A DNA stretch of 60,692 nt from Bacteroidota bacterium (GCA_034659855.1 JAYEIA010000199.1:1-60692), one strand, 5' to 3'. Shown: positions 26,978-35,251, counted from the stretch's first letter. Program-made: numbers and translations. Notes: a model not told the origin generated them from the letters alone.

Positions 26978-28156
26978 TTATTCATTCAGAATACTAACTT
27001 CGGTGTTTTCTTTGGGGTCAACCAGTGCCTCCGAAACCAGTTTTGTATCTTCCGGAAGCCCGTTAAAGAGTAAGGTTTTTTCATTGGTTTTCAGAATATT
27101 TATTTTTTGTTTTAGAAGTCTGCCCTTTTCTACAATAAATACCTCGTTGTGGTTTATTACCGCATCTCTGTCCAAAAGCATGGCATTTTTTACTTCGATG
27201 TTTGAGAATGTGGCTTGCATGTATTCTCCTTGGTATATTTTTTCACCTTTGGGTGAAGTAAGGCTGATAAAAATCGTGACGGATTGTGTTTGAGGGTCTA
27301 CAAAATCGGAGACTCTGTTTACTGTTCCCTTGTACTCTTTTTTTCCGTGGTCGGTAGTAACTTTTACGTGGTTTCCTTTGCGAATGAATCGAGCATCTGA
27401 GGTTTTAACGGAGGCTTCGAGTTCCAAACGGTTGGTTCGAATGAGTTTGGCGATTTTTCCGCCGGGGTTTGCAATGCCGCCAACTTCGATATATACATCT
27501 GAAAATGAACCGGAGAACGGAGCATAAATAAAGTATTTTTGCATACGAACCTGCTCACTTTTTATGGAATAGTAATCGCTGAGGATGTTTCTTCCGGTTA
27601 AGTATATTTTTTCCTGACTGGATTTAATTTCCGGCAAGTCGGGTATATTTTTGTCGATATCTGTTTTATCAAAAAATGTTAACCAATTTTGGTAGCTCTC
27701 CGGATAGTCAATTTTAAAATCCGGCAACAGATTAGCCACGGAGTTAAGAAATCTACTTTTTCTTGCTTTGAGTGCGTAGGCGGCTTCGGTATTGAAAATA
27801 CGTACAAGCAGTTGGCCTTTTCTGAACGATTGCCCTTTTTTCAGCGGAACATTTCCGGGAAGTATTTTTCCTTGCACTTCGGCACTTAAATTAATGAAAT
27901 GGCGTGTTGATATTCTTCCGGTTGCCACGGTTTCTGATTTCTGATTTTTGTATTTTACCGGGGTTACTTTTACATGCGTTTTGTGTTTCTTATTTTCAAC
28001 CGTCTTGGGTTCCGGTTTCATGATGCTCAAGCCTTTCATGGAGATTACTCCGAGTATAATTACCAGTACAACTCCGGCTATTGCAATATAATGTTTTTTC
28101 TTCATGGTATTCGTTCTTTTGCTGAATTCAAAATAGTTTTCGTAAAATTCGGACAT
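26978..28156 (-). CDS. RND efflux periplasmic adaptor (membrane fusion protein, HlyD family)
   Basis: Single N-terminal TM (HYIAIAGVVLVIILGV) followed by lipoyl/beta-barrel-like repeats. The start is ambiguous among ATG 28156 (28 nt after a -7 box), ATG 28105 (MKKKH) and the ORF-track start 28186. Confidence 0.78.
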   Translation of the reverse strand: MSEFYENYFEFSKRTNTMKKKHYIAIAGVVLVIILGVISMKGLSIMKPEPKTVENKKHKTHVKVTPVKYKNQKSETVATGRISTRHFINLSAEVQGKILPGNVPLKKGQSFRKGQLLVRIFNTEAAYALKARKSRFLNSVANLLPDFKIDYPESYQNWLTFFDKTDIDKNIPDLPEIKSSQEKIYLTGRNILSDYYSIKSEQVRMQKYFIYAPFSGSFSDVYIEVGGIANPGGKIAKLIRTNRLELEASVKTSDARFIRKGNHVKVTTDHGKKEYKGTVNRVSDFVDPQTQSVTIFISLTSPKGEKIYQGEYMQATFSNIEVKNAMLLDRDAVINHNEVFIVEKGRLLKQKINILKTNEKTLLFNGLPEDTKLVSEALVDPKENTEVSILNE

Positions 28157-28183
28157 GAATTTTCCCTCAAATAAGCAATGATA

Positions 28184-28191
28184 CAAAAATA
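28184..28191 (-). promoter_or_regulatory. -7 promoter box (TATTTTTG) for the RND operon
   Basis: The minus strand reads TATTTTTG, upstream of the adaptor gene. Confidence 0.4.
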
Positions 28192-28445
28192 GTAATATTT
28201 TTTGTGTTAGATTAATATTTTGAGAATTTTTATAGGTTGTTTAGTGTTGTTTAACAATGAGTATATGTGTTTTGTGTATATACTGTCTGAACGGAAATAC
28301 ACAAAATTAGAAATGTTTTTTTTTGCGATATTTCTATTTTTTAAAATTCGTTGATACAGTGGCATCTCCAAATTAAAAAAAATAAAAATCTCATCAAAAA
28401 AAACTCATTTCGTAAAATTCGTCTGTTTTCGCTCAGAAACTATAT

Positions 28446-28581
28446 AAAAATCAGGATGTTAGGACACAATAGTATAAAAACAACAATAAAATACACAAAA
28501 GTTGCACGAACAGCAGTTAGAAAAATTAAAAATCCATTAGACAACATATCACAAAATATAGAAAAAGACAAACCACCATAA
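28446..28581 (+). pseudogene. C-terminal remnant of a tyrosine recombinase/integrase
   Basis: MLGHNSIKTTIKYTKVARTAVRKIKNPLDNI matches the LGHssikTTeiYthv....i.sPld C-terminus, including the catalytic Tyr. The upstream part of ORF 28351..28581 is low-complexity K/I-rich, with no remaining integrase body. Confidence 0.6.
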
Positions 28582-28929: not shown

Positions 28930-29197
28930 AAAATAAAAAAATATAAATGTCAATATTTCAAAATTCAGTACTTAATAAATATTTGAAAACGCAAGATGAA
29001 AAGAAGATTGATGACATGTATTTTCAATTTACTTCATATTTTCATAATGCCGAAATACAAGAAAATATCCGAAACTCTAAGGAAGAACAATTTCAGGAAG
29101 GATTTTTAAGAGAATTGTTTGTCAAGATTTTGGGATATACTTTAAATCCTAAACCGAATTTCAATCTAACGACTGAACTTAAAAACGAAAAAGGAGC

Positions 29198-29204
29198 AAA
29201 AAAA
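29198..29204 (+). repeat. A7 homopolymer at the frameshift site (A_AAA_AAA in the upstream frame)
   Basis: GGA GCA AAA AAA CAG. One extra A (A8) would give GAKKTDGAILKNGK... and fuse ORF A to ORF B. The overlap window of the two frames is 29183..29219. Confidence 0.75.
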
Positions 29205-30659
29205 CAGACGGTGCAATCCTGAAAAACGGAAAAGCACTATCCGTAATTGAACTTAAAGGAACGGACACCAAAGATTTAGACAAAATAAACGAACAGGCTT
29301 TCAATTACAAAAATAATCATACTGACTGTGTTTATGTGATTACTTCAAATTTTGAGAAACTGCGTTTTTTTATTCATAATGCAGTTGCTCATATTGAATT
29401 TAACCTGTTTACACTTACAAAAGAAGAATTTAAAATATTTTGGCTTTGTCTGAATGCCGATAATTTATTGGGCGGAGTTCCCGAAAAGGTAAAACAAGAA
29501 AGTACGATAGTAGAAGAAAATGTAACCAAACAACTTTACAAAGATTATTCGGCTTTTAAACATGAGCTTTGGCAAAATATCTGTAAAAACCGACCCGATT
29601 TAGATAAACTTCTGTTGTTTAAGAAAACGCAAAAGCTATTGGATCGATTTCTGTTTATATTTTTTGCCGAAGACAGCGGATTACTGCCGCCAAACTCAAT
29701 TTCGAGAATGGTAGAACGCTTTGAGCAACTTATTGAATTAGACGCAGAAAAACCACTTTACGAAATTTTTAAACAATATTTTGGTTATATAAACAAAGGC
29801 AGGAAAGGCAAAACAACACAAGATGATATTTTTGCATACAACGGCGGTTTATTTCAGCCCGATGAATTGTTGGACAGCCTGATAATTGATGATAAAATAT
29901 TAAAACCTCACGTAGAAACAATGACAGCTTACGATTTTAAGAGCGATGTTGATGTAAATATTTTGGGGCATATTTTTGAAAACTCGCTCAATGAAATTGA
30001 AAACGTAACCGCACAACTCGAAGGACAGGAATTAGACAAAAGCAAAACCAAACGAAAAAAAGACGGCGTTTTTTACACACCCAAATACATTACAAAATAC
30101 ATTGCAGAAAATACCGTAGGCAAACTTTGCGAAGAGAAAAAAGCTGAATTAAATATTACAGATGAGCGATTTACCGAAGCCGGGAAACGTTCTAAGAAAG
30201 GAATTGCAGATTTAGAAGCATACAGAAACCGGTTGCTTGAACTAACTATTTGCGACCCTGCATGTGGTTCAGGAGCTTTCCTAAACCAAGCACTTGAGTT
30301 TTTAATAAGTGAACACAGATATATTGACGAACTTTTAGCGGCTTATCATAAAGTACCTATAGTGTTGAGTAATATAGAAAACCACATTCTGGAAAAAAAT
30401 ATTTACGGTGTGGATATTAACGACGAAAGTGTAGAAATTGCAAAACTTTCGCTTTGGCTGCGAACCGCACAGCGCGGCAGAAAACTAACATCGTTAAATA
30501 ACAACATAAAATGCGGAAACTCACTGATTGACGACCCTGAAGTAGCAGGAGAAAAGGCATTTAATTGGCAAAAGGAATTTCCGCAGGTTTTTGAAAAAAA
30601 GGATAAAAAGGCTTGGCATATTATCTTTGCAATATATAATTCACGTTATTCGACGGATG

Positions 30660-30679
30660 CCGACGGGTTAACCCGTCGG
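30660..30679. repeat. Perfect 20-nt palindrome CCGACGGGTT/AACCCGTCGG (hairpin 1)
   Basis: Read directly from the sequence. It encodes DGLTRR within the Y1 module. Confidence 0.9.
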
Positions 30680-30915
30680 TTTGCCGGTGATACAGCAAAT
30701 AAACCCGGTTTTATTGCCCGAACTTATCCGGAACTGCTCCCGGAGCAAGAAATTATTATTGCCGAAGAATTAGCAAAAGCAGCCGAAGAATACAGCTTAA
30801 ACATTACGGCATGTAATATTTGCAAAGACCACGTACATGCCATTATAGTATGCGAAGAAGATGAGTTATCGTATCTTACCGGAAAATGGAAAGGCCGAAG
30901 TGCATTTACATACAA

Positions 30916-30935
30916 CCAACGGGTAAACCCGTTGG
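30916..30935. repeat. Palindrome CCAACGGG-TAAA-CCCGTTGG (hairpin 2, compensatory variant)
   Basis: Read directly from the sequence. The G>A change in the left arm is matched by C>T in the right arm relative to hairpins 1 and 3. Confidence 0.9.
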
Positions 30936-31094
30936 CTGTATCAAAAAAGCAAAAAGCCCAATACGCCGACGGAACCAAAGAAAAATTTTGGGCCAAAAGT
31001 TTCAAACCCGTATTAATAAAAGACAAAGAACAATACCAAGCAACCGTAAACTACATAAAAAACAACCGAACAAAACACAAACTGCCACCCCAAA

Positions 31095-31114
31095 CCGACG
31101 GGTTTACCCGTCGG
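31095..31114. repeat. Palindrome CCGACGGG-TTTA-CCCGTCGG (hairpin 3)
   Basis: Read directly from the sequence. The arms are identical to those of hairpin 1. It encodes DGFTRR just after the Y1 Tyr motif. Confidence 0.9.
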
Positions 31115-32702
31115 CTCAACCAAATGATATGCACTCATAGACACGCATTCCGTCCGGAACACAAAGGCGGTTTTGATGTGATTATTGGTAATCCGCCGTA
31201 TGTGAGAAGTCGAGAATTAATGCAAGAAAATGAAAAAACATATCTTGTAAATTATTATAAAACTGCATCGTATCAGTTAGATTTATACAAATTATTTATT
31301 GAAAAATCTTTGAACCTAATTAATAACAAGGGCAAATTATCCTTTATAACACCCTCGGTGTTCTTATCAAATGATTATGACAAACCACTTCGTAAATTTA
31401 TCTTAGAAAATTATAATTTAGTTCAAATATCAACAAGTGATAAAGACATTTTTACAGATGCAAGCGTAAAAACTGTCGTTTTTACAATCGACAAAAATAT
31501 TGCAAATCAGGAAATTAAGTTTTTTAAAATTGTGAAAGGTGATTTTTTACAAACAAAATTAATTTCAAAGAATGTATTTATAAATCAAGACTATACAATA
31601 AATGAAAACATAAATTTAAGTTCTTTAACAATTTTAAATAAGTTACAAAATTGCTCAAAACTTGATGAGTTTTTTGTTGTCAAAAATGGAATTAAAGTAA
31701 GAAAAGACTTATTATATTCTTCCCAAATAGATACAAATTATAAATCATTTCTTTTAGGTAAAAATATCAATATTTTCTCAATATAATCTAACAATATTTA
31801 TATCCATTACCTGCCAGAAAATGAAAAATTATATACAAATCAGGCTTTTAGAACAAAAGATATTTTTGAACAAGAAAAATTGATTGTAAGACAAATTTTA
31901 GGTAAAAGAATTATTACAACATTTGATAATGAAAATTATTACACAGACCAAACAACCTATGTAATAAACAAAAAAGATAATAATTTTAATTTATTGTTCT
32001 TGCTGTCTGTTATGAACTCAAAATTAATGTATTACTACTTTAAAAATACTTTTTCTGACAATAAAGTTACTTTTCCAAAAGTAAAACGTTCTCAAATTTT
32101 AAAGTTTCCAATAAAAAAAACTGAAAACCAACAACCATTCATAGAAAAAGCAGACAAAATGCTTTCACTAAACAAAAAATTACAAACCGAAAAAGACAAC
32201 TTTTCAAAAACCCTGCAAGAAGAAAAAGGCATTGAAAAATTAAGCAAAAAATTACAAAACTTTCAAAATTTAGAATACGAAGAATTTAAAAAAGAGTTAC
32301 GAAAAAAGAAAATAAAAATCAGTCTCGGCAACGAAAACAACGAGTGGAGAGAATATTTTAATACAGCTAAACAAAAGATAAACGGTTTGCAAAACCAAAT
32401 AAATCAAACCGATACAGAGATTGACAAAATGGTTTATGAATTATACGAACTTACGGCAGAAGAAATTGAGATTGTGGAAAATTCGGTGAAATAAAATGGA
32501 TTTATAAAGCAGAAATCCCAATACGTAAAGAAATTAACGACCGGGCAAAAAGTGAAAAAATTGATATTAATAAATTAGTTTCCGAATTAGTTGAAAATTT
32601 CTATAAAACAGTAAAAAATATAAATAAAAACGCAGCATTATAAAGATTAAGGACGTGGAATTAGCATAAACGCTACACAAACGACTTTACTTTAAACTCG
32701 GC

Positions 32703-32765: not shown

Positions 32766-33449
32766 TTATTCAAATCTGATTAACTCAGAAGATCCCATGA
32801 GTTTATCTTTTGAATTGTAGGTTTCTGATTTTACAACTCCTACACCTTCGGTAATCCAGGAAATAGTTTTTAAGGTAATGGTTACAAAACCGGCCTTTGA
32901 TTTTATATCCTGTGATATTTTAAGGCAACTGAAGGTTCCGGCATCGGTTGTAACTTTCTCTTTGGCCAAAACTTCTCGGTTTTCAATGGTTGTAACAAAA
33001 TCTAAGGTCATCATTCCGGTGTTTATTGACACGGTTACCGAACCGTCATCTAAAGTCGTGCCGACACCCATATTTTTGGGGTAGCTGATGTTTTCAAAAT
33101 CGAATGATATTTGGGTTTCTTCGTAGTTTTCATATTGTTCTTGGTTCAAGTATTGGCTCATATCTACATTAAAGACTCCGTTTTCGCAGTAAAAATTCAG
33201 GGTATCTCTGTTTTCTTCTTTCCCTTTTTTGTCTTTGTAAATTTGCTCAATTTTGTACCGGGTTTGTCCGTCTTTTACGGTTTTATCCAGTAATTTTTGA
33301 CTGTGGTAAGATTCTGTTTTGCCTTTTTTGTTTTTATTAACGTATTCCGCAACTTTGTTTCCGTTGTTTATAATGTAAGCTGTACAATCTTGTGCTTGTA
33401 CTGAGAACAAAGCGATAACTCCAATTAGACTAAGAATGATTTGTTTCAT
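32766..33449 (-). CDS. Hypothetical secreted protein
   Basis: The start is chosen at MKQIILSLIGVIALFSVQAQ (signal peptide, ATG at 33449) rather than the ORF-track start 33566. The protein is beta-rich and has no recognised motif. Confidence 0.55.
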   Translation of the reverse strand: MKQIILSLIGVIALFSVQAQDCTAYIINNGNKVAEYVNKNKKGKTESYHSQKLLDKTVKDGQTRYKIEQIYKDKKGKEENRDTLNFYCENGVFNVDMSQYLNQEQYENYEETQISFDFENISYPKNMGVGTTLDDGSVTVSINTGMMTLDFVTTIENREVLAKEKVTTDAGTFSCLKISQDIKSKAGFVTITLKTISWITEGVGVVKSETYNSKDKLMGSSELIRFE

Positions 33450-33763
33450 AATTTTATATTTGATTTTAATATTTGCGAAAGTTAGCTCTTTTTTTAAAAA
33501 CGAAGTTAATTTTTTGATGAATGATTCCGACATCAATTTAAAACCTGACAAAAAGCATATAACCAAAAGCCTGTATCATGTCCGAAGACAATCTACAGGC
33601 AGAAATGGCACGAATTGTTGAATTTTTAACCCTCTGTATCAACAATAAGTGAACTGTAAAATTATTGAAATTTTTATTTTGCAGCGTGTTGTTAATTTTG
33701 GACAACCGGATAAAACATTCTGTTGAACCGGAAACGACACACCGTTTTTATACTATTCTCAGA

Positions 33764-35251
33764 TTAGTCCGGTTTTTCATGAAGATATTGATTATTTTTT
33801 CGCATCACCGGCCCGTTGTCGTCCTTAGATACTGTGTACCTTGAATACTCTTCGGAACTATAGTCGTTTTTTATTTCCAAATCTATATTGTTTCTCAAAT
33901 AGGCCGGCGTTTTTTCTAAATCATGCAAATTTTCTGAATAATTCATAGACCTGCTGTTTTTTGTTTGCGGCTCAAGAATTGAAATATTCGTTTGCTTTTC
34001 TTCTTCTTCTTCTTGAGATTGAGACGAGCTTGGTGTTTGCTTTTTATCAAATATTTCGTCGTTTAAACTGAAAGGATCTTTTGATAGATTGTCCTCTTCA
34101 AAGTCTAAGTCATCCGTGTCTGTTACGTCATCTATTTCTAAGACAATTTTGTCAGATGTGTCCTGTTCTTCAATCGTATTTTTCTCGATTTTGCTTTCAT
34201 CATCATCCAGATTATATTTGATTTTTTTAGGTTCAATATCAGCTCTGGGTGTCGACGAGTAGAGTGCCGGAATATCGTGTTCTCCAAAACCTGTAGCAAT
34301 AATTGTTACAGCAATATTATCATCCAAAGACTCCTCCAGTGAACTTCCGGAGATTAAATCGGCTTCATTTCCTGCGGCATCCTGAACCATTTCATTGATG
34401 TCGGAAATTTCATCCATCGTCGCTTTTTTGGTTGATGAATAGGAAATGTTTATGAGTAGATTTTTAGCACCGTCAATGTCATTATTGTCCAATAATGGAG
34501 AGGATAAGGCATCATTTACTGCATTAACGGCACGATCTTCACCGTTTGCTTTTCCGGCACCCATAAGAGCGATACCGCTGTTTTTCATAACTGTCTGAAC
34601 ATCAGCAAAGTCAACGTTTACATAACCTTCTTTAGTTATAATTTCAGCAATACCTTTTGCGGCAGTAGTCAAAACGTCGTCGGCCTTTTTGTAGGCGTCA
34701 TCAATATCCAACTCTCCGTAGATTTCGCGAAGTTTTTCATTGTTGACAACAAGCAGGGCATCAACAAAGTTGTTCATTTCACGAATACCCTCAATGGCTT
34801 GTCTGATGCGTTGTTTGCCTTCATACCCGAATGGAATGGTAACAATACCCACGGTGAGTTTGTCGAGTTCATGCGCTGCCTCGGCTATAATAGGGGCGGC
34901 TCCCGTTCCCGTGCCTCCTCCCATACCTGCTGTAATAAACACCATCTTAGTATTGTCATCGAGTTCGGCCTTAACCTCCTCAATGCTTTCAACGGCTGCC
35001 TCTCTTCCTTTGGCCGGGACGCTTCCTGCTCCCAGACCTTCAGTGAGCGTAGGGCCCAGTTGAATTTTATTTTCTACAATGCTGCTGTCAAGAGCCTGTT
35101 TGTCGGTATTGCATATAATAAAATCAACACCACTTATTCCTTGAATGTGCATGTTCTTTACGGCATTACTTCCGCCGCCTCCTATTCCTATAACCTTAAT
35201 TATGGATGAGGGCTTCTTTTTCATATCGAATGGTAATAATTCTTCTGTCAT
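33764..35251 (-). CDS. ftsZ: Cell division GTPase FtsZ
   Basis: IGIGGGGSNAV and the tubulin signature GGGTGTGAAP are present. The C-terminal linker is long and acidic. It is the last gene of the dcw cluster. Confidence 0.95.
   Translation of the reverse strand: MTEELLPFDMKKKPSSIIKVIGIGGGGSNAVKNMHIQGISGVDFIICNTDKQALDSSIVENKIQLGPTLTEGLGAGSVPAKGREAAVESIEEVKAELDDNTKMVFITAGMGGGTGTGAAPIIAEAAHELDKLTVGIVTIPFGYEGKQRIRQAIEGIREMNNFVDALLVVNNEKLREIYGELDIDDAYKKADDVLTTAAKGIAEIITKEGYVNVDFADVQTVMKNSGIALMGAGKANGEDRAVNAVNDALSSPLLDNNDIDGAKNLLINISYSSTKKATMDEISDINEMVQDAAGNEADLISGSSLEESLDDNIAVTIIATGFGEHDIPALYSSTPRADIEPKKIKYNLDDDESKIEKNTIEEQDTSDKIVLEIDDVTDTDDLDFEEDNLSKDPFSLNDEIFDKKQTPSSSQSQEEEEEKQTNISILEPQTKNSRSMNYSENLHDLEKTPAYLRNNIDLEIKNDYSSEEYSRYTVSKDDNGPVMRKNNQYLHEKPD

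What the first reader, a model, noticed from the sequence alone, without database searches (positions are those of the whole stretch)
30596..31165. Y1 (HUH) IS200/RAYT-like transposase module embedded in frame inside the methyltransferase core of a Type IIG R-M gene
FNWQKEFPQVFEK and GGFDVIIGNPPYV (motif IV) are normally adjacent in Eco57I/TaqI-like gamma-class enzymes. Here they are separated by about 570 nt (about 190 codons).

The translation of this segment has the full motif order of Y1 transposases:
- beta1 AWHIIFAIYNSR
- HUH DHVHAIIV (30830..30838)
- WKGRSAF
- FWAKSF
- catalytic Tyr in VNYIKNN (31052..31054)

The segment has no start codon and no stop codon, and it keeps the host reading frame. 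It could therefore only be made as an internal domain of the R-M polypeptide. Two readings are possible. A selfish element may have inserted in frame and been tolerated. Alternatively this is a genuine nuclease-MTase-HUH architecture. I do not know of a described R-M enzyme with this layout.
Basis: partly seen in the sequence, partly recalled or inferred. Interest (0 to 1): 0.8.

Follow-up and report, generated by a model that had tools for sequence, protein, structure and literature searches.

The report
Transposase domain nested in restriction enzyme
A complete IS200/RAYT-type (Y1, HUH) transposase domain, with three copies of a short DNA palindrome, is translated in frame inside the methyltransferase core of a Type IIG restriction-modification gene; the same nested layout occurs in well over a hundred mostly Bacteroidota-group genomes and I found no paper that describes it.

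Summary
Window 30596-31165 is an in-frame, stop-free 190-codon block between FNWQKEFPQVFEK and GGFDVIIGNPPY of an MmeI/Eco57I-type Type IIG gene (28947-32494). That gene is broken elsewhere by one frameshift and one TAA.

The block is a full Y1 domain: Pfam Y1_Tnp 36.6 bits (cut-off 23), and the top 30 Foldseek hits are all Y1 transposases.

It is not a one-off:
- 87 of the 120 best homologues, and at least 87 genome loci, carry it at exactly this site.
- HUH and Tyr are kept in at least 99% of copies, and dN/dS is 0.1-0.3.
- Other homologues join the two motifs directly.

Related inserts almost all hold 1-3 perfect ~22-nt palindromes, read in different frames. Their density is 2.2/kb in inserts, 0.33/kb in the host ORF and 0.08/kb outside. 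None were found in insert-free alleles. Their type tracks the Y1 subfamily. Free-standing relatives are flanked by such palindromes.

Best reading: a RAYT-like nuclease nested with its REP-like substrates, forming an optional cassette in a mosaic R-M gene. Whether it is selfish, mobile as a unit, or useful to the enzyme is unresolved.

The parts
28947..32494 (+). Host gene: MmeI/Eco57I-family Type IIG restriction-modification enzyme (nuclease, helical spacer, gamma-class MTase, TaqI_C-like TRD). In this window it is split into three ORFs.
   Evidence: Pfam MmeI_hel, MmeI_Mtase, Eco57I, N6_Mtase, TaqI_C. PADLOC REase_MTase_IIG PDLC03609, 639 bits, with the match broken at the insert. tblastn of P0010/P0001 covers 28947-32491 in two frames. 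Foldseek of the 816-aa model hits BrxX/PglX, CamA and MmeI 5HR4.
29198..29206 (+). Frameshift lesion: 1-nt deletion right after an A7 run. GCA AAA AAA (G)CA GAC GGT should read ...KKADGAIL, the PD motif of the nuclease.
   Evidence: homologue consensus KKADGAIL...VIELK.
30254..30283 (+). MTase motif I (DPACGSGAFL), upstream of the insert.
   Evidence: Invariant in alignment A2.
30596..31165 (+). In-frame Y1 (HUH) transposase-like insert, 190 codons, with no start or stop of its own. It equals a whole free-standing Y1 protein minus its Met, plus short linkers of about 5 aa (KDKKA...) and about 4 aa (...PEHK).
   Evidence: Free-standing relatives P0152/P0154 span the same motifs from xHITWVTHxSR to ..AF...
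30611..30646 (+). Beta-1 strand AWHIIFAIYNSR (family consensus AWHITTATHNSR).
   Evidence: Strand 6-13 in the model; H and R invariant.
30660..30679 (.). Palindrome 1, CCGACGGGTTAACCCGTCGG (read as DGLTRR). It lies in a loop that the model predicts as disordered.
   Evidence: ssDNA hairpin -10 kcal/mol, z -3.5. pLDDT below 50 for residues 17-33.
30830..30838 (+). HUH motif, His-Val-His within KDHVHAIIV.
   Evidence: Kept in 87/88 proteins and 87/87 loci.
30887..30907 (+). WKGRSAF (family K.KG.SAR helix motif).
30916..30935 (.). Palindrome 2, CCAACGGGTAAACCCGTTGG. It is read in a different frame (QRVNPLA) and has one stem pair changed on both sides relative to palindrome 1.
   Evidence: Hairpin -11.1 kcal/mol, z -6.1. 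Sits in the variable loop between the KG..AR helix and the W-strand.
30986..31003 (+). FWAKSF (beta-4 W motif).
   Evidence: W invariant.
31052..31054 (+). Putative catalytic Tyr (VNYIKNNRTKH).
   Evidence: Y invariant. Motif present in 88/88 and 87/87.
31095..31114 (.). Palindrome 3, CCGACGGGTTTACCCGTCGG (read as TDGFTRR). With its flanks it forms a 25-nt inverted repeat with palindrome 1 (30659-30683 / 31091-31115, 96%).
   Evidence: Hairpin -10.1 kcal/mol, z -4.4.
31166..31201 (+). Host resumes: GGFDVIIGNPPY (MTase motif IV, NPPY at 31190-31201).
31784..31786 (+). In-frame TAA interrupting the TRD part of the host gene.

Best explanation
The segment is a complete Y1 (HUH) single-strand DNA endonuclease/transposase domain of the IS200/RAYT superfamily. 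It is nested as a separately folding domain in the surface loop just before motif IV (NPPY) of an MmeI/Eco57I-type Type IIG R-M enzyme. It is made only by read-through translation of the host ORF.

It travels with its own REP-like substrates. These are perfect 20-24-nt palindromes that form ssDNA hairpins and are tolerated in frame in disordered loops.

The proposed mechanism, by analogy with RAYT/REP and IS200/IS605 TnpA, has four steps:
1. The Y1 domain binds the hairpin on single-stranded DNA.
2. It cleaves and rejoins the DNA through HUH-bound metal and the Tyr.
3. This copies or maintains the palindromes preferentially in cis, in its own gene.
4. It does so more rarely elsewhere in the chromosome.

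The cassette as a whole is optional. It is gained, lost and swapped as one of at least three modules (N-terminal block, Y1 cassette, C-terminal MTase/TRD block) of a highly mosaic, horizontally moving R-M gene family. In this window the host gene has recently been inactivated, while the Y1 block is still intact.

**Shown:** domain identity and fold; the conserved site; conserved catalytic residues; purifying selection; palindrome enrichment and its link to the insert; modular mosaicism; the existence of free-standing palindrome-flanked relatives.

**Inferred:** catalytic activity; that the palindromes are its substrates; cis action; the reason the fusion persists.
For: **Identity and fold**
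- Pfam Y1_Tnp is above its gathering cut-off.
- A PDB profile search hits IS200/IS608/ISDra2 TnpA at E about 1e-5.
- The Foldseek top 30 are all Y1 transposases, led by RAYT 4ER8.
- In the 816-aa model the insert (residues 421-610) has the same secondary-structure elements as when modelled alone. The palindrome-coded stretch is disordered.

**Recurrence at one site**
- 87/120 homologues and 87 genome loci carry it at one site. Insert lengths are 495-1083 nt, all multiples of 3.
- All 10 longer proteins checked among the insert's other relatives are Eco57I/MmeI-type MTases.

**Constraint**
- HUH is kept in 87/88 and 87/87; the Tyr motif in 88/88 and 87/87.
- dN/dS is 0.10-0.29 with dS saturated.
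- Host motifs I and IV and the D...ELK nuclease motif stay invariant in insert-bearing proteins.

**Palindromes**
- The window has 3, against 0.04 expected, and all lie inside the insert.
- Across 87 loci the density is 2.21/kb in the insert, 0.33/kb in the rest of the ORF and 0.08/kb outside.
- In host parts they sit in loop hot spots.
- Palindrome-derived peptides occur 29 times in host parts of insert-bearing proteins and 0 times in 33 insert-free proteins.
- The same DNA is read in different frames, for example TRGHAPLS and NKGACPLV.
- Hairpin DNA is conserved where synonymous sites are saturated, and there are compensated stem changes.
- 31% of palindrome cores are identical within a gene, against 4% between genes.
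- Y1 subfamily correlates with palindrome type. This holds also within one MAG.

**Free-standing relatives**
- The P0154 gene is flanked on both sides by an identical 24-nt perfect palindrome, with a 93%-identical copy inside the ORF.
- P0152 has two palindromes downstream.

**Dispersal**
- Of 126 metagenome copies of one 22-mer, only 20 lie in MmeI-like genes. The rest have unrelated flanks, half of them in other ORFs.

**Modularity**
- The insert's presence changes at least 19 times on the N-part tree.
- N-part and C-part identities are uncorrelated.
- Similarity breaks exactly at the insert boundary.
- A clean filled/empty pair exists, P0005/P0086.

**Precedent**
- In-frame REPs inside tnpAREP genes of subclass 2.4 (PMC6006769).
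- Intragenic REPs (PMC3733652).
Against: - No biochemical evidence exists. That the Y1 domain acts on these palindromes is inferred from co-occurrence.
- The correlation of Y1 subfamily with palindrome type could partly reflect shared taxonomy. Only one same-genome contrast was found, and it comes from a MAG.
- The domain fails the curated NCBIfam cut-offs for both RAYT and IS200. Its Tyr motif (YIxNNRxKH) is not the RAYT YIxxNP.
- The palindromes are perfect and carry no tag, unlike canonical REPs.
- In this window no palindrome copy lies outside the insert, so dispersal in this genome is not shown.
- Most copies of the surveyed 22-mer lie far from any R-M::Y1 gene. They could be mobilised by free-standing Y1 genes instead.
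- The NJ trees used for patchiness are crude, and recombination confounds them.
Confidence: 0.6

Rival explanations
1. Autonomous in-frame mobile cassette. On this reading the Y1 block itself is a mobile element specialised for the conserved ...VFxK|GGFDVVIGNPPY... site of Eco57I-type MTase genes. It would insert and excise scarlessly (IS200/IS605-like peel-and-paste, or homing by repair from a filled allele). It would depend on host read-through for expression and persist because it does not kill the host gene. That would make it a DNA-level analogue of an intein.
For: - Precise empty sites are found in 29 of the 33 insert-free homologues.
- Filled/empty pairs exist with both flanks about 82-85% identical: P0005/P0086 at the nucleotide level and P0011/P0119 at the protein level.
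- Insert-free alleles are nested within insert-bearing clades.
- Different Y1 lineages (55-61% identical) sit in hosts whose N parts are 91-94% identical.
- The same site is occupied in several host subfamilies, including NPPW/HSDR_N types.
- Embedded and free Y1s are interleaved on the Y1 tree, with 25 state changes.
- The DNA flanking the site is strongly conserved, including at synonymous positions.
Against: - The insert is ORF-only. It lacks the non-coding ends with subterminal hairpins that IS200/IS605 elements need, and palindrome positions inside inserts are not consistently terminal.
- No pair of nearly identical inserts was seen in clearly divergent hosts. The best case is insert 94% against N part 82%.
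- Gain or loss usually coincides with a swap of the whole downstream block, as expected from ordinary recombination between mosaic alleles.
- There is no second copy in the window.
Confidence: 0.2
2. Functionally integrated defence domain. On this reading the Y1 nuclease has been recruited by the R-M enzyme. It might nick or covalently capture single-stranded or hairpin/cruciform DNA of invaders, or catalyse recombination at the palindromes that shuffles the gene's own modules and so diversifies specificity.
For: - The domain has been retained long-term under purifying selection, with intact catalytic residues, alongside intact host motifs.
- It sits next to the catalytic NPPY loop.
- The genes are extremely mosaic, with breakpoints at the cassette boundaries. 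In relatives, palindromes lie at inter-domain loops.
Against: - Closely related insert-free alleles are common and look intact, so the domain is dispensable for R-M function.
- The palindromes are essentially absent from 2.9 million viral contigs, with 1 and 0 hits. They are therefore not phage targets.
- Mosaicism (N part versus C part) is also seen among insert-free alleles.
Confidence: 0.15
3. Decayed relic or artefact. On this reading the block is a dead transposase remnant in a pseudogene, or an assembly chimera, with no present activity.
For: - The host gene in this window carries a frameshift and a nonsense codon.
- A 93%-identical relative from another sample (P0125) is rearranged and lacks the Tyr helix.
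Against: - The 190 codons are open, with HUH and Tyr intact.
- The identical architecture is intact in dozens of independent assemblies.
- dN/dS is far below 1.
Confidence: 0.04

Closest known systems
RAYT / TnpA-REP with REP sequences (REPtron), especially TnpAY1 subclass 2.4 (Quentin et al. 2018, PMC6006769; structure 4ER8)
   Same: - Y1 HUH fold; 4ER8 is the best Foldseek hit.
- No second copy in the 60-kb window.
- The nuclease is associated with short palindromes that cluster at and inside its own coding region without breaking the frame.
- Two palindromes in inverted orientation bracket the catalytic core.
- Palindrome type co-varies with enzyme subfamily.
   Different: - It is not a free gene. 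It has no start or stop and is nested in another enzyme.
- It scores below the NCBIfam RAYT cut-off.
- The Tyr motif is YIxNNRxKH, not YIxxNP, and the HUH is DHxH. In the table read these look closer to class 1 (subclass 1.2, YIKNQKEHH). That is my comparison by eye, not a test.
- The palindromes are perfect, loop-less and without a GTAG tag.
- No dispersed copies occur in this window.
IS200/IS605 TnpA (IS608, ISDra2) peel-and-paste insertion sequences
   Same: - Sequence and fold relatives.
- HUH + Tyr chemistry on ssDNA hairpins.
- Scarless empty sites are what such elements leave behind.
   Different: - No own ORF signals and no LE/RE non-coding ends.
- No multicopy near-identical elements.
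- Below the NCBIfam IS200 cut-off.
Inteins and homing-endonuclease insertions in conserved motifs of essential or selfish genes
   Same: - An in-frame nuclease-coding block sits next to a catalytic motif of a host enzyme.
- It is optional among close alleles, with precise empty sites.
- It is expressed only through the host ORF.
   Different: - No Hint/splicing residues. The block starts with K, ends with K, and the next residue is G.
- No intein Pfam hit.
- The domain presumably stays in the mature protein.
Intragenic palindromic repeats: Rickettsia palindromic elements and intragenic GTAG/CGTC REPs (Di Nocera et al. 2013, PMC3733652)
   Same: Short palindromic repeats are inserted in frame in protein-coding genes and tolerated in loops. 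The window's palindromes end in CGTC.
   Different: - Here they are concentrated in the gene that encodes a candidate cognate nuclease.
- They are perfect 20-24-nt palindromes with no conserved tail.
MmeI-family Type IIL/IIG enzymes and BREX PglX (5HR4, 8C45, 9EWZ)
   Same: The host has the same domain order (nuclease, helical spacer, gamma-class MTase, TRD) and motifs.
   Different: The described members join motif III and motif IV directly. None of those I could find carries a nuclease domain in this loop.

Membership tests
Y1 HUH transposase superfamily (Pfam PF01797, TnpA-Y1) | Profile score above the curated gathering threshold | tested here: met
   36.6 bits against GA 23, E 5.6e-9. PDB profile hits to IS200/IS608/ISDra2 TnpA at E 3.5e-5 to 1e-4.
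Y1 HUH transposase superfamily (Pfam PF01797, TnpA-Y1) | HUH motif followed by a single catalytic Tyr on a C-terminal helix, in that order | tested here: met
   DHVH at 30827-30838 and Tyr at 31052-31054. Conserved in at least 99% of 175 related inserts.
Y1 HUH transposase superfamily (Pfam PF01797, TnpA-Y1) | Y1 fold (beta-sheet with HUH strand, helix carrying Tyr) | tested here: met
   AF2 pLDDT 80. The Foldseek top 30 are all Y1 transposases, TM (target) 0.52-0.67.
Y1 HUH transposase superfamily (Pfam PF01797, TnpA-Y1) | Sequence-specific ssDNA cleavage and strand transfer | not testable with these tools
   Needs biochemistry.
RAYT (REP-associated tyrosine transposase, NCBIfam NF047646) | Score above the curated equivalog cut-off | tested here: not met
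   53.5 bits against a cut-off of 80.
RAYT (REP-associated tyrosine transposase, NCBIfam NF047646) | Class-2 Tyr signature YIxxNP (table in PMC6006769) | tested here: not met
   The window has YIKNNRTKH and the family consensus is YIxNNRxKH.
RAYT (REP-associated tyrosine transposase, NCBIfam NF047646) | Gene flanked by cognate palindromes in inverted orientation | tested here: inconclusive
   A 25-nt inverted pair 30659-30683 / 31091-31115 brackets the catalytic core, but it lies inside the ORF. Free-standing relative P0154 is flanked classically.
RAYT (REP-associated tyrosine transposase, NCBIfam NF047646) | Cognate REPs dispersed through the same genome | tested here: inconclusive
   No copies in the other 60 kb of the window. 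A sister palindrome type is widely dispersed in metagenome contigs. The whole genome was not available.
IS200/IS605 insertion sequence | Autonomous element: own tnpA ORF with start and stop, subterminal LE/RE hairpins in non-coding ends | tested here: not met
   No start or stop. Palindromes are coding and not consistently terminal. NF033573 scores 31.4 bits against a cut-off of 55.
IS200/IS605 insertion sequence | Multiple near-identical copies at different sites | tested here: not met
   No second copy in the window. No near-identical inserts in divergent hosts among 88 loci.
MmeI/Eco57I-type Type IIG (IIL) R-M enzyme (host) | Single polypeptide with an N-terminal PD-(D/E)XK nuclease, helical spacer, gamma-class N6A MTase (motif I, NPPY) and C-terminal TRD | tested here: met
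   Pfam domains. PADLOC REase_MTase_IIG 639 bits. Motifs DGAIL...IELK, DPACGSGAF and NPPY. Fold hits BrxX, CamA and MmeI.
MmeI/Eco57I-type Type IIG (IIL) R-M enzyme (host) | Intact, expressible gene | tested here: not met
   Frameshift at 29204/29205 and TAA at 31784-31786 in this window. Homologues are intact.
Intein | Hint domain with N-terminal Cys/Ser and C-terminal His-Asn followed by Cys/Ser/Thr | tested here: not met
   The boundaries read K...HK|G. No Hint/intein Pfam hit.

The most novel reading that the evidence does not exclude
The Y1 block plus its palindromes may be a previously unrecognised kind of selfish element that lives in frame inside a conserved catalytic-loop site of Type IIG R-M genes. 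It would have no expression signals and be translated as part of the host. It would be gained and lost scarlessly and ride on a gene that is itself selfish and horizontally mobile, making it a DNA-level counterpart of an intein. It may also actively drive the cassette shuffling that diversifies these enzymes. The tiny 22-nt perfect palindromes it mobilises would then be the smallest known in-frame-tolerated transposable units.
Probability: 0.2. Interest if true: 0.9.

Novelty: new variant of a known kind. Interest (0 to 1): 0.72.

Why it matters
**An open question.** The biological role of RAYT-type domesticated Y1 transposases and of REP palindromes is still unsettled. Here a catalytically intact-looking Y1 domain is physically built into a DNA-modifying defence enzyme in at least 109 representative (one-per-species) genomes. 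Its candidate substrates are written into the same ORF. One polypeptide could therefore be used to test Y1-hairpin recognition, cis preference and any coupling to restriction or methylation. Cultured carriers exist, for example Confluentibacter flavum and Flavobacterium restrictum.

**Other points of interest**
- A roughly 190-residue nuclease domain is tolerated immediately before the NPPY catalytic loop. That is useful to know for engineering MTase or HUH-tag fusions.
- R-M gene mosaicism has a breakpoint exactly at this cassette.
- 22-nt perfect palindromes can be carried in frame in many proteins.

**Annotation.** These genes are variously called 'transposase', 'N-6 DNA methylase' or 'RayT/type I methylase subunit'. 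Surveys of Y1 proteins have filtered them out as fusions.

Tried and rejected
- **Word-indexed search with the insert alone** found nothing. This was a method limit: the exhaustive HMMER search found 243 clusters.
I replaced it with a degenerate junction pattern.
- **Intein reading:** rejected (boundary residues; no Hint hit).
- **Ordinary IS200/IS605 insertion in a pseudogene:** rejected. There are no ORF signals or IS ends, the insert is conserved in frame in at least 87 loci, and there are no near-identical copies.
- **Palindromes as a by-product of protein repeats:** rejected. The same DNA is read in two or three frames, and stem changes are compensated.
- **Palindromes as a general feature of these genomic neighbourhoods:** rejected by the density gradient and their absence from insert-free alleles.
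- **Palindromes confined to R-M genes:** also rejected. 84% of metagenome copies of one type lie elsewhere.
- **Phage-borne hairpins as the Y1 target:** not supported.
- **Organism name:** the attempt to name the organism failed.
- **Upstream ORF 28351-28581,** which looks like a recombinase C-terminus by eye, has no Pfam support.
- **The alternative 64-76-aa insert** at the same site in P0032/P0047/P0075 has no Pfam match and no Y1 or palindrome signature.


Full report
**1. What is in the window**

ORF listing and translation show one long gene on the + strand, 28947-32494, split into three ORFs: 28947-29222, 29336-31786 and 31880-32494. tblastn with full-length homologues runs through the whole span in two frames.
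- The frame change is a single-base deletion after an A7 run at 29198-29204. It falls inside the nuclease motif KKADGAIL.
- The second break is a TAA at 31784-31786.

Pfam finds MmeI_hel, MmeI_Mtase, Eco57I, N6_Mtase and TaqI_C. PADLOC calls the protein REase_MTase_IIG at 639 bits, with the match split at residue 421. A model of the 816-aa ORF matches BrxX/PglX, CamA and MmeI. The host is therefore a Type IIG (MmeI-like) R-M gene carrying two inactivating lesions in this genome, unless those are sequencing errors.

**2. The insert**

Between ...FNWQKEFPQVFEK and GGFDVIIGNPPYV lie 190 codons (30596-31165) with no stop and no start of their own.
- Pfam Y1_Tnp scores 36.6 bits (cut-off 23).
- NCBIfam REP_Tyr_transpos scores 53.5 bits and IS200 31.4 bits. 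Both are significant but below the curated cut-offs.
- An AlphaFold model built from 24 related inserts has pLDDT 80. Its 30 best PDB matches are all Y1 transposases: E. coli RAYT 4ER8 first, then ISDra2, IS608 and Sulfolobus IS200. A sequence profile also reaches these proteins.
- In the 816-aa model the insert (residues 421-610) shows the same strands and helices as when modelled alone, with MTase strands on either side.

**3. It is a family-wide architecture**

Among the 120 best homologues of the ORF, 87 carry a Y1 insert at exactly this position.
- 29 of the other 33 read ...VF-x-K|GGFD...GNPPY directly.
- P0032, P0047 and P0075 hold an unrelated 64-76-aa helical segment there. P0067 has 8 extra residues.

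A degenerate DNA pattern for the right junction (AFRxEYK-GGFDV) hit 109 stretches in the one-genome-per-species collection. Most are Bacteroidota, with some Ignavibacteria, Chlorobiota, Cloacimonadota and a few others. In 87 of these the whole insert is one open frame of 495-1083 nt, always a multiple of 3.

Conservation is strong:
- HUH is present in 87/88 and 87/87, and the Tyr motif in 88/88 and 87/87.
- Host motifs I and IV and the nuclease D...ELK remain invariant.
- Within the window's subfamily dN/dS is 0.10-0.29, with synonymous sites saturated.

An exhaustive search with the insert found 243 clusters. By my classification, about half of the best 149 are embedded and about half are free-standing genes of 140-250 aa. 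All 10 long proteins I checked among them are Eco57I/MmeI-type MTases, including subfamilies with other N-termini. I saw no other host family.

Free-standing relatives run from M-x-x-(F/Y)HITWVTHNSR to ...AF-x-x. The insert therefore equals a complete Y1 protein minus its Met, with linkers of about 5 and about 4 residues.

**4.

The insert holds three 20-nt palindromes: 30660-30679, 30916-30935 and 31095-31114.
- Three matches are found where 0.04 are expected, and there are none elsewhere in the 60.7-kb window.
- Each forms a stable ssDNA hairpin of -10 to -11 kcal/mol, z -3.5 to -6.
- Copies 1 and 3, with their flanks, form a 25-nt inverted pair around the catalytic core.
- Copy 2 is read in another frame and has one stem pair changed on both sides.
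- Copy 1, and the stretch just after copy 2, fall in low-confidence loops of the model.

In the 87 related loci almost every insert carries 1-3 perfect palindromes. They belong to the ACAAGGGG-N6-CCCCTTGT family or to the window's GACGGGTTAACCCGTC family. The same DNA is translated as TRGHAPLS, NKGACPLV or QQGSMLPC depending on frame.

The enrichment is clear:
- Density is 2.21/kb in inserts, 0.33/kb in the rest of the same ORF and 0.08/kb outside.
- In the host part they sit in a few loop hot spots: the PD...ExK loop, before GVFYTP, and the C-terminal tail.
- Palindrome-derived peptide motifs occur 29 times in host parts of 87 insert-bearing proteins and never in 33 insert-free ones. About 11 would be expected there.
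- The insert-free gene of P0086, which I scanned for palindromes, has none.

Several observations point to active maintenance and cognate pairing:
- Palindrome DNA stays conserved where synonymous sites are saturated.
- Copies within a gene are identical far more often than copies between genes, 31% against 4%.
- Palindrome centre type follows Y1 subfamily: GCATGC with HITTATHNSRYS, CTGCAG/TTGCAA with HVTWVTHDTRTS, GTTAAC with the window type.
- In one MAG, two genes of different Y1 class each carry their own palindrome type.

**5. Relatives and dispersal**

Free-standing P0154 is flanked on both sides by the same 24-nt perfect palindrome and has a 93%-identical copy inside its ORF. P0152 has two palindromes downstream. 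This is the classical REPtron layout.

One 22-mer palindrome scanned in metagenome contigs gave at least 126 copies.
- Only 20 lie in MmeI-like genes.
- The rest have unrelated flanks. About half lie inside other long ORFs and half are intergenic.

The palindromes are therefore a dispersed REP-like population that is strongly concentrated in Y1-carrying genes. They are virtually absent from 2.9 million viral contigs.

**6. Modularity**

On an NJ tree of the N-terminal part, the insert's presence changes at least 19 times among 117 sequences. Shuffled labels give a mean of 28.

For the window:
- The N part is 82-88% identical to insert-free proteins. Several of these are named from Beggiatoa-like Gammaproteobacteria.
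- The insert is closest (65%) to P0010 and P0044, whose N parts are the most distant (57%).
- The C part is closest (77%) to P0032.
- At the DNA level, similarity to P0047 (84%) stops exactly at the insert start. The P0092/P0034 pair (91%) behaves the same way.

Across all pairs, N-part and C-part identities are uncorrelated. Hosts 91-94% identical in the N part can carry inserts only 56-61% identical.

Clean filled/empty pairs also exist. P0005 and P0086 are collinear at 82-84% nucleotide identity on both sides, with 570 nt against 6 nt at the site. P0011/P0119 look alike at the protein level.

I found no near-identical insert in clearly divergent hosts. The cassette behaves as one of at least three independently assorting modules. 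Whether ordinary recombination in the conserved flanks or a Y1-dependent process moves it cannot be decided here.

**7. Interpretation**

- **Best supported (about 0.6).** A RAYT-like Y1 nuclease is nested in a permissive loop of the MTase, together with its REP-like substrates. It is optional and shuffled among mosaic R-M alleles. Activity and substrate choice are inferred.
- **Rival: autonomous in-frame cassette** (peel-and-paste or homing), about 0.2. Precise empty sites and site fidelity favour it. The ORF-only boundaries and the lack of recent jumps weaken it.
- **Rival: functionally recruited domain** (ssDNA/hairpin processing or self-diversification), about 0.15. Long-term constraint favours it. 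Dispensability and the absence of the palindromes from viral contigs weaken it.
- **Rival: relic or artefact,** below 0.05. This applies at most to this one copy.

**8. Comparison with what is known**

The closest systems are:
- RAYT/REP, notably subclass 2.4, where REPs sit in frame inside tnpAREP (PMC6006769).
- IS200/IS605 TnpA.
- Intragenic REPs and Rickettsia palindromic elements (PMC3733652).
- By analogy only, inteins.

The domain is a member of the Y1 superfamily: profile, motifs and fold were all tested and met. It fails the curated RAYT and IS200 equivalog thresholds and lacks the RAYT YIxxNP signature, so I do not file it as a RAYT or as an IS.

Six full-text searches found no description of a Y1 domain inside an MmeI/Eco57I MTase. 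Quentin et al. state that unexpectedly long fusion proteins were discarded. Database pipelines already label some of these proteins 'RayT / methylase', so the sequences are public but, as far as I can tell, uninterpreted.

**9. Verdict**

The finding is real and its main interpretation is supported. It is a new variant (architecture) built from known kinds of parts, with an unresolved and testable question about selfishness against function. Interest 0.72.

Noticed in passing
window 29198-29206 and 31784-31786: The host R-M gene is inactivated here by a 1-nt deletion after an A7 run (inside the nuclease PD motif) and by a TAA in the TRD part. The Y1 block itself is still fully open. This suggests recent decay, or sequencing errors at a homopolymer.
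   Followed up: partly
P0125 (89-aa protein from another sample): It is 93% identical to the window's insert but rearranged. The Tyr helix is deleted right next to palindrome 3, and the stretch TRRLN.MICT..HAF is duplicated. It is a decayed sibling of this very lineage.
   Followed up: no
P0032, P0047 (L113 3001-6357), P0075: An unrelated 64-76-aa helical segment with no Pfam match occupies exactly the same MTase loop in some insert-free relatives. The loop is therefore a general permissive insertion point.
   Followed up: partly
L113 (P0047) vs window 28953-30595; L111 (P0092) vs L112 (P0034): The 1.65-kb N-terminal block is 84-91% identical at the nucleotide level between genes whose downstream parts are unrelated. 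The last 260-370 nt are again about 80% identical. This gives a conserved-variable-conserved layout typical of cassette exchange. Some close N-part relatives are named from Beggiatoa-like Gammaproteobacteria, which implies inter-phylum transfer.
   Followed up: partly
L114 1235-1258 and 1925-1948 (gene 1377-1904); L116 4537-4560 and 4734-4755: Free-standing Y1 relatives sit in ordinary chromosomal neighbourhoods. They are flanked by perfect 22-24-nt palindromes (AACAGGGGGGTTAACCCCCCTGTT on both sides of P0154, plus a 93%-identical copy inside its ORF).
   Followed up: partly
L193, L159, L168, L188, L210, L166 (metagenome contigs): The 22-nt palindrome ACAAGGGGGCATGCCCCCTTGT is read in frame inside long unrelated ORFs. 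In two different sensor/phosphatase-like ORFs it sits at the same spot (...GDFYWTTQ-TRGHAPL-...DCTGHG). It also occurs in a MetH-like ORF. These gene identities were judged by eye only.
   Followed up: no
L021 2626-3096; L020 insert: There are local arrays. L021 has six or seven palindromes within about 450 nt of a broken R-M::Y1 gene. L020 has tandem half-palindrome repeats, (S/T)TDGVPY repeated, expanding the C-terminal loop of the Y1 domain.
   Followed up: no
L171 (metagenome contig, 1211-aa ORF): A more distant Type IIG subfamily (motif IV NPPW, different N-terminal nuclease) carries a Y1 insert at the equivalent site, with a run of TRGH(A/T)P repeats. The association therefore extends beyond the MmeI-like clade.
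   Followed up: no
window 28351-28581 (+): A short ORF upstream of the R-M gene ends in ...LGHNSIKTTIKYTKV..., which by eye resembles the C-terminus of a tyrosine recombinase. No Pfam support was found. The R-M gene lies between an HlyD-type efflux gene (26978-28186, -) and a DUF3108 gene and ftsZ (32766-35251, -).
   Followed up: partly
L110/L111 2800-8309; L238 3776-4222: Neighbours of related R-M genes look like defence-island content. An HTH gene and an AAA_13 ATPase flank insert-free P0092. A weak TIR_2-domain ORF follows insert-bearing P0005.
   Followed up: no
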